Below, in pieces: positions 59,368 through 62,377 of a stretch of DNA of 64,000 bases. The notes under the pieces are model-generated. The model was not told where the DNA came from. It ran no database searches and saw nothing but the letters and a program-made list of their open reading frames with translations. The position numbers and the translations under genes are program-made. The stretch lies in the IMG/VR virus record IMGVR_UViG_3300023178_003744, positions 13,224 to 77,223 of that record. One strand, 5' to 3'. Source of the DNA: a virus. The first letter of the stretch is position 1, and every line of letters begins with the position of its first letter.

Positions 59368-61143
59368 ATGACAATTCTAATTAAAGATTTAACAGTTAAA
59401 AACTTTATGAGCGTTGGTAATCAAACTCAAGCAGTTCGATTTGATCAAGAACAGCTCACTCTAGTGCTTGGTGAAAACTTAGATCAAGGAGGTGATGACT
59501 CAGGCTCACGAAACGGGACGGGCAAAACTACAATTATTAATGCATTGTCTTACGCTCTCTACGGCCAAGCACTAACTAATATCAAAAGAAACAACCTTAT
59601 TAACAAAACGAACTCAAAACACATGTTAGTAACGTTGAATTTTGAAAAAAACAATGTTCAATACCGTATCGAACGTGGTAGATCGCCTACATTTACTAAG
59701 TTTTATGTGAATAATGAAGAACAAGAGCTTACAGACGAGTCACAAGGCGACTCTCGAAAGACTCAAGAGTCAATTAATGAGCTATTAGGTATGAGTCACG
59801 ATATGTTTAAGCATATTGTAGCACTTAATACCTATTCAGAGCCATTTTTAGCAATGCGTACTAACGATCAGCGTGCAATTATTGAACAATTGCTTGGTAT
59901 TACCATACTTTCTGAAAAAGCTGAGGCTCTAAAAGAGAAAATTAGAGAAACAAAGACTACTATTGACTCTGAAACTAACAAAATTACAGCAATTCAGTCA
60001 GCAAATGAGAAAATTGAAGAAACAATTGCCAGCCTTGGTGGTACTCAACGTGCTTGGCAAGCAAAAAGAAAGCAAGATATTGAAAAATTAGAAGCTGCTA
60101 TCAATGAATTGGGCAAACTAGACATTGATTCTGAGATCGAAAACCACGAAAAGCTACAAAATTGGCAAACAACCAATACTGAACTTGAAAATTTGCAAAA
60201 AGAACGGATAGCTTTAGAGTCTGCACAGCAAAGAGCACAAAAAACTGTAGACAAAATAGAAAAAGATATTCAAGATCTTGAAGATGCAGTGTGTTATGCA
60301 TGTGATCAACCACTGCACGACGACAAAAAACAAGAAATTCTTGCAAAAAAGACCAAAGAATTAGACGAATCTGCAAAATATTTGCAAGAAATTGCCGAAA
60401 CGCTTGATAAAACACAGAAAAGCATTGCTGATATTGGTGATTTAGAAAGCAAACCCACAGTTTTTTATGAATCTATGAAAGAAGCATACGAACATAGACA
60501 AAACATAGACAGTCTTTCACAAAGTCTTGAAGCAAAACAGAACGAAACTGATCCTTATGAAGCACAAATTAAAGAACTTACCAATACTGCACTTCAAGAA
60601 ATTGATTGGTCAACTGTAAATCGTCTTACTGATTACCAAGATCATCAAGAATTCTTGCTAAAATTGCTTACAAATAAAGATAGTTTCATTCGAAAGAAGA
60701 TTATTGATCAAAATTTGAGCTATTTAAACAACAGGCTTACTTCATATCTTTCAAAACTTGGTCTTCCGCATCAAGTTGAGTTTCAAAATGATCTAAATGT
60801 AGAAATTACGCAACTAGGACAAGATCTAGACTTTGATAACTTAAGTCGAGGCGAACGTAATAGACTTATACTTGGATTAAGTTTTGCATTTAGAGACGTA
60901 TGGGAAAATCTATATCAAAATATCAATTTGTTGTTTATCGATGAGCTGATAGACAGCGGTATGGACTCAGCTGGTGTTGAAAATGCACTAGGTGTAATCA
61001 AACACATGGGCAGAGAAGGTAGAAAAAATGTTTTCCTTATCTCGCACAAAGATGAATTAGTAGGAAGAGTAAATCATGTGCTCAAAGTAATAAAAGAATC
61101 AGGTTTTACTTCTTACTCAACAGACTTGGATGTTGTAGAATGA
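59368..61143 (+). CDS. gp46: Recombination endonuclease ATPase subunit, gp46 (Rad50/SbcC-like)
   Basis: KNFMS.GN, Walker A NGTGKT, coiled coil with CYAC zinc hook, LSRGE signature, LLFIDE Walker B, ISHK. Confidence 0.95.
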   Translation: MTILIKDLTVKNFMSVGNQTQAVRFDQEQLTLVLGENLDQGGDDSGSRNGTGKTTIINALSYALYGQALTNIKRNNLINKTNSKHMLVTLNFEKNNVQYRIERGRSPTFTKFYVNNEEQELTDESQGDSRKTQESINELLGMSHDMFKHIVALNTYSEPFLAMRTNDQRAIIEQLLGITILSEKAEALKEKIRETKTTIDSETNKITAIQSANEKIEETIASLGGTQRAWQAKRKQDIEKLEAAINELGKLDIDSEIENHEKLQNWQTTNTELENLQKERIALESAQQRAQKTVDKIEKDIQDLEDAVCYACDQPLHDDKKQEILAKKTKELDESAKYLQEIAETLDKTQKSIADIGDLESKPTVFYESMKEAYEHRQNIDSLSQSLEAKQNETDPYEAQIKELTNTALQEIDWSTVNRLTDYQDHQEFLLKLLTNKDSFIRKKIIDQNLSYLNNRLTSYLSKLGLPHQVEFQNDLNVEITQLGQDLDFDNLSRGERNRLILGLSFAFRDVWENLYQNINLLFIDELIDSGMDSAGVENALGVIKHMGREGRKNVFLISHKDELVGRVNHVLKVIKESGFTSYSTDLDVVE

Positions 61144-61370
61144 CCGAAGAATCAAATAACAAAGAAGAAACAACTCATGAAAAGTTAGTAAAAGAGTATC
61201 TAAGGTACTACGACGCTAATATAAAATTTCAAAGCAGGCACAGTTTTAGAACACACAGATCAAGTAGAAGACACTTAAGAAATATTATCAAATTGGCTAG
61301 AGACAGGCAAAAAGAAATACACGAAGAATACGCAAAAAATAAAAAAACCAGAAAGAAAGGCACTGACTAA
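61140..61370 (+). CDS. Small basic hypothetical protein
   Basis: 76-aa ORF with ATGA overlap to gp46. Confidence 0.65.
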   Translation: MTEESNNKEETTHEKLVKEYLRYYDANIKFQSRHSFRTHRSSRRHLRNIIKLARDRQKEIHEEYAKNKKTRKKGTD

Positions 61371-61390: not shown

Positions 61391-61831
61391 ATGGAATGGA
61401 CCTATAAAGGCAATGTAATCGATAGTTTACCTGATAACTGTGAAGGTTTTGTATATGTTATTACAAATACAACCAATGGTAAGCAATATATAGGCAAGAA
61501 ATACGCAAAATCTACAAAAACTCGACCACCTCTTAAAGGAAAGAAAAACAAAAGGCGTACAAAAGTAGAAAGTGATTGGAGAGACTACTGGCGTTCTTCA
61601 GATCATTTAACAAAAGATATAGAAAATTTAGGCAAAGAAAAATTCACAAGAGAAATACTTTATATTTGTCCCAGTAGAGGCATTGCAAGTTATTTAGAAG
61701 CACGAGAACAATTTGAAAGGCGAGTTTTAGAATCTGACAATTACTATAACGGAATAATAAACGTTCGTATAGGCAGTTCTAAAATATTAAAGGAGTACCT
61801 AGGCAATGAAACAGGTAAAACAAAACTTTAG
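61391..61831 (+). CDS. GIY-YIG endonuclease (Seg-like, catalytic domain only)
   Basis: GFVYVITNTTNGKQYIGKK ... F.REIL......LEAREQ......YYN. Confidence 0.85.
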   Translation: MEWTYKGNVIDSLPDNCEGFVYVITNTTNGKQYIGKKYAKSTKTRPPLKGKKNKRRTKVESDWRDYWRSSDHLTKDIENLGKEKFTREILYICPSRGIASYLEAREQFERRVLESDNYYNGIINVRIGSSKILKEYLGNETGKTKL

Positions 61832-61849
61832 GCAATTATACAGCACACA

Positions 61850-62200
61850 AGGTTAGCGGGCCGGATACATACCGCTGTGGAAAAGTTGGGGAGTAGACCC
61901 AAACACGTAACATGTTGAGCCAACGCCCAGAGGCGGTAAGTTGACATAGATTGCTGCTGTCAGTCACAAAACACACTATGTTCATAAAAACTGTACAAGT
62001 AGGAACGAGAGTGCAGATAACGTAACAGTGTTACGTGATGTCGACGTAGGTAGGGAAAGGTCAGAGCCCATTGAACGTGTGTATAAACAAATACCTATTT
62101 CCATGTCACGGGTGGTGATACTCACAGGAAAACCGAAAGGCTTTTTTTATGACGGGACCGTAACAGGTTCCGTCTGAGCAGATTAATCTACAGGAATCTT
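61850..62200 (+). ncRNA. Candidate large structured non-coding RNA (family not recognised)
   Basis: ORF-free and GC-richer than its flanks; many stems with G-U pairs on the plus strand, a GAAA tetraloop, a long-range helix 61876-83/62098-105 and a possible pseudoknot 61903-08/62075-80. Confidence 0.6.
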
Positions 62201-62218
62201 TCTTCCCGAGTACCTAAA

Positions 62219-62340
62219 AAAATCTAAAAAAGACTATCAGATAAAATCTAAAAGCGTATTAGTACGAAGTAAGTTGTTGAGTTTGATTTGCGATAGCGAT
62301 AGCTGAGCAAACAAACGAAGACATGGATCAACGCAGTTGA
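62219..62340. repeat. Short direct repeats and GNA-loop hairpins (possible origin/ssDNA signal)
   Basis: AAAATCTAAAA at 62219 and 62243; TAC-GAA-GTA 62263-71; hairpin 62281-62316 with GCGATAGCGATAGC; TCAAC-GCA-GTTGA 62328-40. Confidence 0.45.
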
Positions 62341-62342
62341 GA

Positions 62343-62350
62343 CATAAATA
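62343..62350 (+). promoter_or_regulatory. Late promoter CATAAATA
   Basis: Upstream of an AAGGA SD and ATG 62378. Confidence 0.6.
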
Positions 62351-62377
62351 ACATAAACATGATATTAAGGAATCCTC

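What the first reader, a model, noticed from the sequence alone, without database searches (positions are those of the whole stretch)
61832..62200. Unrecognised large structured RNA immediately downstream of a stand-alone GIY-YIG nuclease
Seen: the only long intergenic gap in 64 kb (546 nt), GC-richer than the genome and full of helices. These are AGCGG/CCGCT (61855-76), TTGGG/CCCAA (61886-61902), CAAC-GCC-CAGA-GGC-GGTAA-GTTG, ACATAG/CTATGT, CTGTAC/GTGCAG (61991-62016), ACGTAAC/GTTACGT (62020-36), TAGGTA/TACCTA (62047-97) enclosing GGG-AAAGGTCAGAG-CCC, long-range TGTGGAAA/TTTCCATG (61876-83/62098-105), and a possible pseudoknot ACACGT/ACGTGT (61903-08/62075-80). After these come GTCAC/GTGAT and a CTCA/TGAG three-way junction holding CC-GAAA-GG and GACGGGACC/GGTTCCGTC (62151-74). 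G-U wobbles and the GNRA loop favour a plus-strand RNA. Known: nuclease-adjacent structured RNAs (HEARO, IscB omega-RNA) act as guides or scaffolds, and large ornate phage RNAs (GOLLD, ROOL) exist. Inference: either an RNP partner for the GIY-YIG protein, which lacks the usual C-terminal DNA-binding domain, or a ribozyme or replication-primer RNA.
Basis: partly seen in the sequence, partly recalled or inferred. Interest (0 to 1): 0.85.

Follow-up and report, generated by a model that had tools for sequence, protein, structure and literature searches.

The report
Twin-box knotted phage RNA gene
The gene-free stretch behind a small nuclease gene of this uncultured giant T4-like phage encodes a real RNA of about 357 bases with three knots, from a family no catalogue lists; it carries one 7-letter word twice, seems able to switch between two folds, has no known job, and is probably not the nuclease's guide.

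Summary
Window 61840-62196 (+) is a genuine structured RNA gene. I found relatives in 197 IMG/VR phage contigs, of which 105 are at most 93% identical to each other. On those 105, 67 base pairs in 14 helices are 94% paired, against 81% when shuffled and 36-40% when slid, and 43 pairs show compensatory changes. Three pseudoknots are supported. Both of its long-range pairings are wrong. Rfam gives no match.

This scan has reported the same "twin-box" family before, on other DNA. Two 7-nt words (62124-30 and 62190-96) are identical in 104 of 105 relatives across 11 variants, and I found no complementary partner anywhere.

New here:
- In three diverged subfamilies the loop of one hairpin repeats the 5' strand of the last hairpin and complements its 3' strand. 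That is the signature of two mutually exclusive folds.
- In a 216-kb relative, the Rfam Polynucleobacter-1 motif sits in the same gene slot and is followed by its own twin boxes.

The GIY-YIG gene lies upstream in 140 of 150 loci. It is replaced by a PDDEXK nuclease in three loci and is absent in six unrelated contexts, so a guide or RNP role is unlikely. Function is unknown.

The parts
61140..61370 (+). 76-aa arginine/lysine-rich ORF; syntenic neighbour in the order gp46, small ORF, nuclease, RNA
   Evidence: ORF list. Cluster 2 is present in 119 loci. No Pfam or PHROG hit. No co-variation with the boxes.
61391..61831 (+). 146-aa SegE-type GIY-YIG nuclease, catalytic domain only; neighbour of the RNA, not shown to be a partner
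   Evidence: PF19835, E 9e-35. Within 2.5 kb upstream in 140 of 150 loci. Replaced by PDDEXK in 3 loci.
61840..62196 (+). Twin-box RNA, conserved extent (about 357 nt)
   Evidence: blastn and nhmmer homologues in 197 loci. 105-sequence alignment A3. Pair counts.
61840..61845 (+). 5' strand of pseudoknot 1; pairs with 61955-61960, the loop of hairpin 61950-61964
   Evidence: Helix 1: 99.4% paired, 4 of 6 pairs with compensatory change. MI.
61855..61876 (+). Hairpin AGCGG/CCGCU with a GCC...AAUA loop; resembles the first hairpin of Polynucleobacter-1
   Evidence: Helix 2. Compared by eye with the Rfam consensus.
61877..61906 (+). GUG/CAC helix enclosing the variable hairpin 61886-61902
   Evidence: Helices 3 and 4. 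UA becomes AU in 7 sequences; all 5 pairs of the hairpin covary.
61912..61947 (+). Helix AUGUUGA/UUGACAU closing a variable domain; relatives carry inserts of 20 to 70 nt here
   Evidence: Helix 5. Insertions are visible.
61950..61964 (+). Hairpin whose loop forms pseudoknot 1 with the 5' end
   Evidence: Helix 6: 4 of 4 pairs covary.
61980..61984 (+). 5' strand of the long-range helix with 62072-62076 (GUUCA/UGAAC); this helix crosses helix 62046-51/62093-98
   Evidence: Top MI pairs. Helix 7: 5 of 5 pairs covary.
61991..62016 (+). Hairpin with the invariant loop UAGGAACGA (62000-62008). Its GGAAC repeats the 5' strand of the last hairpin and complements that hairpin's 3' strand
   Evidence: Helix 8. 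Invariant columns. Loop/strand co-variation in L173 and L188.
62018..62038 (+). Variable hairpin, 10 to 130 nt in relatives
   Evidence: Helices 9 and 10. Length variation.
62043..62069 (+). Knotted core. GAC 62043-45 pairs with GUC 62060-62, inside hairpin GGG 62053-55 / CCC 62067-69. GUAGGU 62046-51 pairs with 62093-98
   Evidence: Helices 11 to 13. GAC/GUC becomes GUG/CAC, GAU/AUC, GCA/UGC or GUA/UAC; GGG/CCC becomes GGA/UCC.
62093..62098 (+). 3' strand of helix with 62046-62051, followed by the invariant UUCC
   Evidence: Helix 12.
62121..62130 (+). Box A: CUC followed by ACAGGAA (consensus ACAUGAA)
   Evidence: Identical to box B in 104 of 105 sequences, with 11 variants.
62151..62174 (+). 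Last hairpin GACGGGACC/GGUUCCGUC. The 3' strand is invariant; all variation sits on the 5' strand
   Evidence: Helix 14. Invariant columns.
62187..62196 (+). Box B: UCU followed by ACAGGAA; the 3' end of the conserved element
   Evidence: One RNA-library contig of a relative ends exactly here (table 7). Contig ends do not show RNA ends.
62197..62377 (+). Non-conserved A-rich spacer before the 485-aa gene; not part of the RNA
   Evidence: Similarity ends at about 62196-62205 in all but the closest relatives. No terminator-like hairpin here, unlike 51 of 98 relatives.

Best explanation
Shown: window 61840-62196 (+) is a gene for a non-coding RNA of about 357 nt with three pseudoknots. It belongs to the uncatalogued 'twin-box' family carried by uncultured giant T4-like phages of marine, estuarine and fresh water. 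It is transcribed in the same direction as the gp55-gp47-gp46-76aa-GIY-YIG block and lies at that block's end.

Shown: the RNA has a variable 5' domain (this window is type 1), an invariant knotted core, and a 3' module. The 3' module holds two identical single-stranded 7-nt words, CUC-ACAGGAA and UCU-ACAGGAA, on either side of a hairpin.

Inferred: the RNA acts in trans as a folded scaffold that presents the two words to one sequence-reading partner, a nucleic acid or a protein that is encoded elsewhere or belongs to the host. It also toggles between two folds, because the 3' strand of the last hairpin can pair either with its own 5' strand or with the loop UAGGAACGA of the core hairpin. It is not a guide for the neighbouring nuclease.
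For: Reality of the RNA:
- 197 loci hold it.
- On 105 sequences at most 93% identical, 94.2% of cells are paired, against 81.0% shuffled and 36-40% slid. 43 of 67 pairs show compensatory change. The covariation score is 0.386 against 0.159, reached by 0 of 500 shuffles.
- Variable-length hairpins, and no ORF with a PHROG hit.
- G-U pairs fix the strand.

Boxes:
- 104 of 105 pairs are identical, across 11 variants; 29 of 30 non-canonical rows are identical; shuffling gives a mean of 56.
- For each variable box position, the best MI partner is the same position of the other box.
- Diverged relatives have other words in the same frame: AGCAAA, AGAUAAU and GUCAAGUU.
- There is no complement in cis.

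Two folds:
- The hairpin loop, the 5' strand and the 3' strand read GGAAC/GGAAC/GUUCC in the canonical form, GGCAC/GGCAC/GUGCC in L173 and CCACC/CCACC/GGUGG in L188.
- Cognate loop-strand duplexes score -7.7, -13.3 and -9.4 kcal/mol. Non-cognate pairs score -1.1 to -8.4.
- The 3' strand is invariant, while the 5' strand takes only changes that form G-U.

Independence from the nuclease.

Presence in RNA libraries: metatranscriptome contigs of several relatives cover the core, with summed depth up to about 190 against 2-10 on the flanking genes.

Own 3' end: a terminator-like hairpin within 60 nt after box B in 51 of 98 relatives, against 12 of 98 in a control window.
Against: - No partner for the boxes was found in cis within 2.5 kb either side, within the RNA, or in six long contigs of 77 to 236 kb. 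The central inferred step therefore has no direct support.
- The two-fold argument rests on three lineages, two of them single sequences.
- The RNA-library data are contigs. DNA carry-over cannot be excluded, and the depth sums several relatives.
- This window has no terminator after box B.
- No phage carrying the RNA is cultured.
Confidence: 0.4

Rival explanations
1. Self-processing RNA or ribozyme. The knotted core, or a sequence-specific RNase, cuts at the same place in both boxes and releases the 66-nt unit between them (about 50 to 90 nt in relatives), either linear or circularised. The two sites must stay identical because one active site reads both.
For: - Many invariant unpaired nucleotides sit in a pseudoknotted core, as in ribozymes.
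- The boxes have the same flanks, CUC and UCU, and sit on either side of a conserved hairpin.
- One RNA-library contig of a relative ends exactly at the end of box B (table 7).
Against: - No match to any self-cleaving ribozyme family in Rfam at E<=10.
- No internal guide complementary to the boxes.
- Contig ends cannot show RNA ends.
- Terminator hairpins after box B in relatives already account for a 3' end near there.
Confidence: 0.15
2. Origin or priming transcript. The folded RNA stays at its own locus, and a box in the RNA pairs with the template strand at the other box. This forms a defined R-loop or primer end for replication next to the gp46/gp47 recombination module.
For: - Identity without a complementary RNA partner is what pairing with its own DNA at a second identical site would require.
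- The position is next to recombination and replication genes.
- T4 oriF and oriG use R-loop transcripts; this rests on established knowledge and was not tested here.
- Earlier notes of this scan proposed the same idea.
Against: - Seven base pairs are too few for a stable R-loop.
- The RNA also lies in unrelated gene contexts.
- One contig carries two such RNAs with different boxes.
- The A-rich tract after the RNA is not conserved.
- R-loop primers are not known to need a 300-nt knotted fold.
Confidence: 0.12
3. Cis-acting 3' element of the operon: a stabiliser, or a switch that controls termination or decay of the upstream mRNA. The two folds would be its on and off states.
For: - It lies at the 3' end of a co-oriented gene block, often directly before a terminator-like hairpin.
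- Mutually exclusive pairings are typical of switches.
- Weinberg et al. 2010 listed Polynucleobacter-1 as possibly cis-regulatory (PMC2864571).
Against: - The upstream genes differ between contexts.
- Downstream genes are variable or convergent.
- The size and three pseudoknots far exceed known 3' stabilisers.
- Twin-box identity is left unexplained.
Confidence: 0.1
4. RNP partner, guide or scaffold of the adjacent GIY-YIG nuclease.
For: - Tight synteny: the nuclease is within 2.5 kb upstream in 140 of 150 loci.
- The nuclease lacks a DNA-binding domain; it is 146 aa and PF19835 covers residues 3-123.
- A nuclease of another fold fills the same slot in 3 loci.
Against: - The RNA occurs without any nuclease neighbour in 6 loci.
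- A nuclease homologue occurs without the RNA in Melnitz.
- No co-variation between the boxes and the protein.
- No variable guide segment.
- A swap between PDDEXK and GIY-YIG fits a recombination-module nuclease, or a homing gene parked beside a conserved target, at least as well.
Confidence: 0.05

Closest known systems
Polynucleobacter-1 RNA motif (Rfam RF01718; Weinberg et al. 2010, PMC2864571), an orphan motif
   Same: - In the 216-kb relative G003, a 46-bit RF01718 match lies in the same slot: gp46, 77-aa ORF, GIY-YIG, then the RNA, then a convergent baseplate gene.
- About 170 nt further on, that match is followed by its own twin boxes with the same flanks, ACUC-AGAUAAU and AUCU-AGAUAAU, around a hairpin.
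- The first hairpin is similar by eye: a GCGG/CCGC-type stem with a loop that starts with GCCA.
   Different: - The RF01718 model finds nothing in the window at E<=10, nor in L132 or L008.
- The model has 141 positions and covers only a 5' domain. The window's 5' domain is of another type, and the knotted core of this RNA is not in the model.
- G003 also has a second twin-box RNA elsewhere, so the two are not simple replacements for each other.
GOLLD and ROOL (large ornate RNAs, often phage-borne)
   Same: Large, elaborately folded phage-associated RNAs of unknown function, without an obligatory protein-coding partner.
   Different: - No Rfam match.
- Smaller, at about 360 to 500 nt.
- Twin boxes and this knotted core are not features of those families.
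IscB omega-RNA (HEARO) and TnpB reRNA (RNA guides of transposon nucleases)
   Same: A structured RNA next to a small nuclease gene.
   Different: - The nuclease is GIY-YIG or PDDEXK, not RuvC/HNH.
- The RNA and the nuclease each occur without the other.
- No variable guide end and no transposon ends.
- No HEARO match.
ColE1 RNA II and the T4 oriF/oriG origin transcripts
   Same: A folded transcript near replication and recombination genes. Pairing with its own DNA would explain identity without a complementary RNA.
   Different: No origin features were shown here. The boxes are only 7 nt. The RNA occurs in unrelated contexts, and twice in one contig.
Riboswitch-type RNAs with mutually exclusive helices
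   Same: One strand (GGUUCC) has two conserved alternative partners, the hairpin 5' strand and a distant loop, as in the expression platforms of switches.
   Different: - No ligand pocket was identified.
- The RNA lies at the 3' end of an operon rather than in a 5' leader.
- It is much larger and knotted.

Membership tests
Twin-box phage RNA (uncatalogued family, defined by this scan) | Conserved knotted core: UAGGAACGA hairpin loop; GUCGAC-GUAGGU-GGG-AAAG-GUC-AGAG-CCC; ACCUAC-UUCC | tested here: met
   Window 62000-62008 and 62040-62102. Invariant or covarying in 105 sequences.
Twin-box phage RNA (uncatalogued family, defined by this scan) | Two identical 7-nt words with flanks CUC and UCU, on either side of a hairpin near the 3' end | tested here: met
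   62121-62130 and 62187-62196, both ACAGGAA. Identical in 104 of 105 relatives.
Twin-box phage RNA (uncatalogued family, defined by this scan) | Carried by T4-like phages, typically after gp46, a small ORF and a small nuclease | tested here: met
   gp55, gp47, gp46, 76-aa ORF and GIY-YIG lie upstream. The same order holds in most loci.
Polynucleobacter-1 (RF01718) | Scores at or above the Rfam gathering score (37 bits) with the family covariance model | tested here: not met
   No match at E<=10 in the window region or in the whole 77-kb record. As a positive control, the model scores 46.1 bits in G003.
Polynucleobacter-1 (RF01718) | Same genomic slot and a shared 3' twin-box module (evidence of wider kinship, not of membership) | tested here: met
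   G003 has gp46, 77-aa ORF and GIY-YIG, then the RF01718 match followed by the boxes CUCAGAUAAU and UCUAGAUAAU.
RNA-guided nuclease RNAs (HEARO/omega-RNA, reRNA) | Obligate co-occurrence with its nuclease gene | tested here: not met
   10 of 150 loci lack the GIY-YIG gene; 6 of them have no nuclease neighbour. Melnitz has the nuclease without the RNA.
RNA-guided nuclease RNAs (HEARO/omega-RNA, reRNA) | A hypervariable guide segment at one end of a constant scaffold | tested here: not met
   Both ends are conserved. The only fast-changing unpaired words are the two 7-nt boxes.
Group I intron | Match to the RF00028 core, and flanking exons that join into one reading frame | tested here: not met
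   No Rfam match at E<=10. Upstream ORFs end before the RNA, and the downstream genes differ between loci.
GOLLD / ROOL / other catalogued large RNAs | Match to the family covariance model | tested here: not met
R-loop origin transcript (ColE1 RNA II, T4 oriF/oriG type) | A persistent RNA-DNA hybrid that primes leading-strand synthesis at the locus | not testable with these tools
   Needs replication-start or R-loop mapping in infected cells.
Self-cleaving ribozymes | Site-specific self-scission in vitro | not testable with these tools
   No Rfam ribozyme match. Only contigs were available, not raw reads.

The most novel reading that the evidence does not exclude
The twin-box RNA is a new class of switching RNA machine. 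Its knotted core toggles the last hairpin open and closed, and so hands one external partner from box A to box B, or processes the RNA at both boxes. The partner would be a host or phage nucleic acid, or a defence nuclease that the RNA decoys. This would be a mechanism for which identity between two sites, rather than complementarity, is what selection maintains.
Probability: 0.15. Interest if true: 0.88.

Novelty: new variant of a known kind. Interest (0 to 1): 0.68.

Why it matters
This is a widespread and strongly conserved RNA. It is about 360 to 500 nt long, has three pseudoknots, and is carried by uncultured giant T4-like phages, yet it has no catalogue entry and no known function.

Two features make it testable. 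The first is a pair of words kept identical, not complementary, through at least 11 changes. The second is a pair of mutually exclusive helices that covary in three subfamilies.

It also shows that the orphan Rfam motif Polynucleobacter-1 is probably only the 5' domain of a longer RNA of this kind. Finding what reads the boxes could uncover a new mode of RNA action in phage infection.

As a finding of this scan it is not new. The same family has been reported from many other windows.

Tried and rejected
- Rfam. No family at gathering score on the whole window, and only noise at E<=10 on the window region, L132 and L008. RF01718 finds nothing in the window's record.
- tRNA and tmRNA: none.
- Terminator in the window gap: none.
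- GenBank phages: no relative of the RNA, searched with two queries.
- A coding reading. The small ORFs in the gap have no PHROG hit, and relatives differ by length changes that are not multiples of three.
- RNAalifold's pairing of GUGGA with UCUAC is contradicted by the GUG/CAC covariation.
- A complement of the boxes:
  - No exact reverse complement within 2.5 kb either side.
  - No third MI partner.
  - The wobble 6-mer matches only hit the UGUGUA of the long-range helix and do not follow box variants.
  - No enrichment of a box or anti-box in six contigs of 77 to 236 kb.
- A same-sense copy about 1660 nt upstream is gp46 coding sequence and does not follow the box.
- CAUG self-pairing of the boxes fails for the variants ACAGGAA and ACAUAAU.
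- Co-variation of the boxes with GIY-YIG, the 76-aa ORF or gp46: none above the background seen in gp46. The power is low.
- Identity beyond the 7-mer. Position +2 agrees in 65 of 103 sequences, against about 34 expected (my own rough figure from the base frequencies). This may be phylogenetic, so I do not claim it.
- Host clue from 185,579 genomes. Of 25 pattern hits, only three contigs held the RNA at a strong E-value (a fourth, L261, gave only a 34-position match at E 8e-5). All three are probably phage contigs binned into MAGs.
- RNA-library contigs give presence only. Joints and parts without cover are not interpretable.
- Literature searches found no description of this RNA.

Full report
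**Setting.** The window comes from a 77-kb viral record that CheckV rates 21% complete, which implies a genome of roughly 350 kb. Upstream of the finding lie a late sigma factor (gp55 type), gp47 (Mre11-like), gp46 (Rad50-like), a 76-aa basic ORF, and a 146-aa protein that is only a SegE-type GIY-YIG domain. The gap 61832-62377 is the only stretch of 150 nt or more without an ORF of 60 aa or more. Its GC content is 41.6% against 33.1% for the window.

- A 21-mer from the core occurs in 15 IMG/VR contigs whose similarity to the window (65-95% identity) spans about 61838-62200.
- A profile search finds the element in 197 of 198 loci. Of these, 122 are full length, and 105 are no more than 93% identical to each other.
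- The alignment shows conserved blocks separated by hairpins of very different length. That excludes a coding reading.

**Structure.** I derived helices from mutual information and counted them on the 105-sequence alignment.
- 67 pairs in 14 helices are 94.2% paired. Shuffling gives 81.0%, and sliding the partner by 1 to 3 columns gives 36-40%.
- 43 pairs carry compensatory changes.
- The covariation score is 0.386 against 0.159, and none of 500 shuffles reaches it.
- Conserved G-U pairs fix the plus strand.

Three pseudoknots are supported:
- The 5' end 61840-45 pairs with the loop 61955-60 of hairpin 61950-64.
- The long-range helix 61980-84/62072-76 crosses helix 62046-51/62093-98.
- GAC 62043-45 pairs with GUC 62060-62, inside the GGG/CCC hairpin.

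Its two long-range proposals, and ACATAG/CTATGT, CAAC/GTTG and CTCA/TGAG, are not. Each of those strands has a different partner that covaries, or the pairing exists only in the window's clade.

**Twin boxes.** The sequences CUC-ACAGGAA (62121-30) and UCU-ACAGGAA (62187-96) lie on either side of the last hairpin.
- Across 105 relatives the two 7-mers are identical in 104. They take 11 different forms: ACAUGAA in 75 sequences, then ACAGGAA, ACAUGAU, ACAUAAU, GCAUGAA, ACGUGAA and others.
- 29 of the 30 non-canonical rows are identical. Shuffling gives a mean of 56 identical rows.
- For each variable box position, the strongest MI partner is the same position in the other box.
- I found no complementary sequence within 2.5 kb either side, within the RNA, or in six contigs of 77 to 236 kb that I downloaded whole.
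- A recurring same-sense copy lies in gp46 coding sequence and does not follow the box.
- The boxes do not co-vary with the GIY-YIG protein, the 76-aa ORF or gp46 beyond the phylogenetic background.

This scan has reported the same "twin-box" family from many other windows. I reached the boxes independently, before reading those notes.

- The invariant loop UAGGAACGA (62000-08) contains GGAAC. That is the same word as the 5' strand of the last hairpin (GAYGGAACC), and it is complementary to that hairpin's 3' strand GGUUCC.
- The 3' strand is invariant in 105 sequences. The 5' strand accepts only changes that create G-U pairs.
- Two diverged relatives have a different last hairpin, and in both the distant loop has changed with it. 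L173 reads loop GGCAC, 5' strand GGCAC, 3' strand GUGCC. L188 reads CCACC, CCACC, GGUGG.
- Cognate loop-strand duplexes score -7.7, -13.3 and -9.4 kcal/mol. Non-cognate combinations score -1.1 to -8.4.

One strand with two conserved, mutually exclusive partners is the signature of a conformational switch. Because it rests on three lineages, I treat it as a well-founded inference, not a fact.

**Modularity and relation to Polynucleobacter-1.**
- In 28 loci only the 3' two thirds match the profile. Their 5' domain is a different structure, while the core, the boxes and the last hairpin are kept.
- Earlier notes named the orphan Rfam motif Polynucleobacter-1 as a relative, and I tested this. The RF01718 model finds nothing in the window's record. 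It scores 46 bits in the 216-kb relative G003.
- There it lies exactly in the slot gp46, 77-aa ORF, GIY-YIG, RNA, convergent baseplate gene. About 170 nt further on come its own twin boxes with the family's flanks, ACUC-AGAUAAU and AUCU-AGAUAAU, around a hairpin.
- The same contig carries a second twin-box RNA elsewhere, behind a rubrerythrin gene, with the box AGCAAA.

So the 141-position Rfam motif appears to be the 5' domain of one subtype of this larger RNA. The window is not a member by the model's own test, but it is a relative in architecture and position.

**Relation to the nuclease.**
- The GIY-YIG gene lies within 2.5 kb upstream in 140 of 150 loci.
- In three loci a PDDEXK nuclease (PF24608) occupies the slot.
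- In six loci the RNA lies among unrelated genes.
- The closest GenBank homologue of the nuclease, in Methylophilales phage Melnitz, sits behind a ribonucleotide reductase gene with no such RNA.

A swap between two nuclease folds next to gp46/gp47 fits either a recombination-module nuclease or a homing gene parked beside a conserved target. I found nothing that points to RNA guidance.

**Expression and ends.**
- Four metatranscriptome runs from three habitats hold contigs of this RNA and of several relatives. Summed word depth over the core reaches about 190, against 2 to 10 over the flanking genes.
- These are contigs, so DNA carry-over and summing over relatives limit the inference.
- In 51 of 98 relatives a terminator-like hairpin, often with a UUCG loop, starts a few bases after box B. 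A control window gives 12 of 98. The window itself has none.

**Mechanism.**
- Shown: a conserved, knotted, plus-strand RNA with two words kept identical.
- Inferred: (i) the words are single-stranded and are read by one partner that lies outside the locus; (ii) the RNA alternates between a closed last hairpin and a loop-to-strand pseudoknot.

My best reading, at 0.4, is a trans-acting scaffold that presents the two words and switches fold. The rivals are a self-processing RNA cut at both boxes (0.15), an R-loop or priming transcript (0.12), a cis-acting 3' element (0.1) and a partner of the nuclease (0.05). None can be decided without RNA-end mapping, probing or partner capture.

**Novelty.** I found no description in Rfam 15 or in the searched literature. 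The nearest catalogued item is an orphan motif that covers only part of a sister subtype. Within this scan the family is already well documented. The additions here are the switch signature, the direct check of the Polynucleobacter-1 link, and the genome-wide negative search for a box partner.

Noticed in passing
L063:1520-2071 (-), and likewise L038 and L104: A 170-184-aa PDDEXK endonuclease (PF24608) takes the exact place of the GIY-YIG gene between gp46 and the RNA. This is a non-homologous replacement of one small nuclease by another.
   Followed up: partly
L200:940-1700 (-) = G003:C1:36430-37190: The Rfam Polynucleobacter-1 match is followed, after about 170 nt, by a hairpin flanked by the twin boxes CUCAGAUAAU and UCUAGAUAAU. 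The Rfam model probably covers only the 5' domain of a longer RNA.
   Followed up: partly
L161:100-650 (-): This relative has the type-1 5' domain up to the pseudoknot hairpin and then continues with about 400 nt of unrelated, GC-richer sequence instead of the core. It may be an insertion or a further subtype.
   Followed up: no
G006 (L201-L204) and G008 (L221-L232): AGCT is absent from the 79-kb contig G006 (0 found, 172 expected) and strongly depleted in G008 (82 found, 541 expected). It is not depleted in G003 or G000. This suggests restriction avoidance that differs between related phages.
   Followed up: no
L263 and L264 (PBPT01000016.1, 335 kb, and PBPT01000082.1, 153 kb): Contigs binned into a Candidatus Neomarinimicrobiota MAG carry the twin-box RNA. 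They are probably giant-phage contigs misplaced by binning. The 335-kb contig may be a near-complete genome, useful for a genome-wide search for the partner of the boxes.
   Followed up: no
window 62197-62377: The A-rich spacer after the RNA, with AAAATCTAAAA twice and tandem GCGATA, is conserved only in relatives that are at least about 87% identical. It contains no terminator-like hairpin, unlike the equivalent place in about half of the relatives.
   Followed up: partly
window 62093-62130 compared with 62166-62196: The direct repeat is longer than the boxes. UUCC-(AA)-GUCU-CGGCUG...ACUC-box resembles UUCC-GUCU-GACUG...AUCU-box, and each copy follows the 3' strand of a helix. This looks like an old tandem duplication of a module, of which only the 7-mer is kept identical.
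   Followed up: partly
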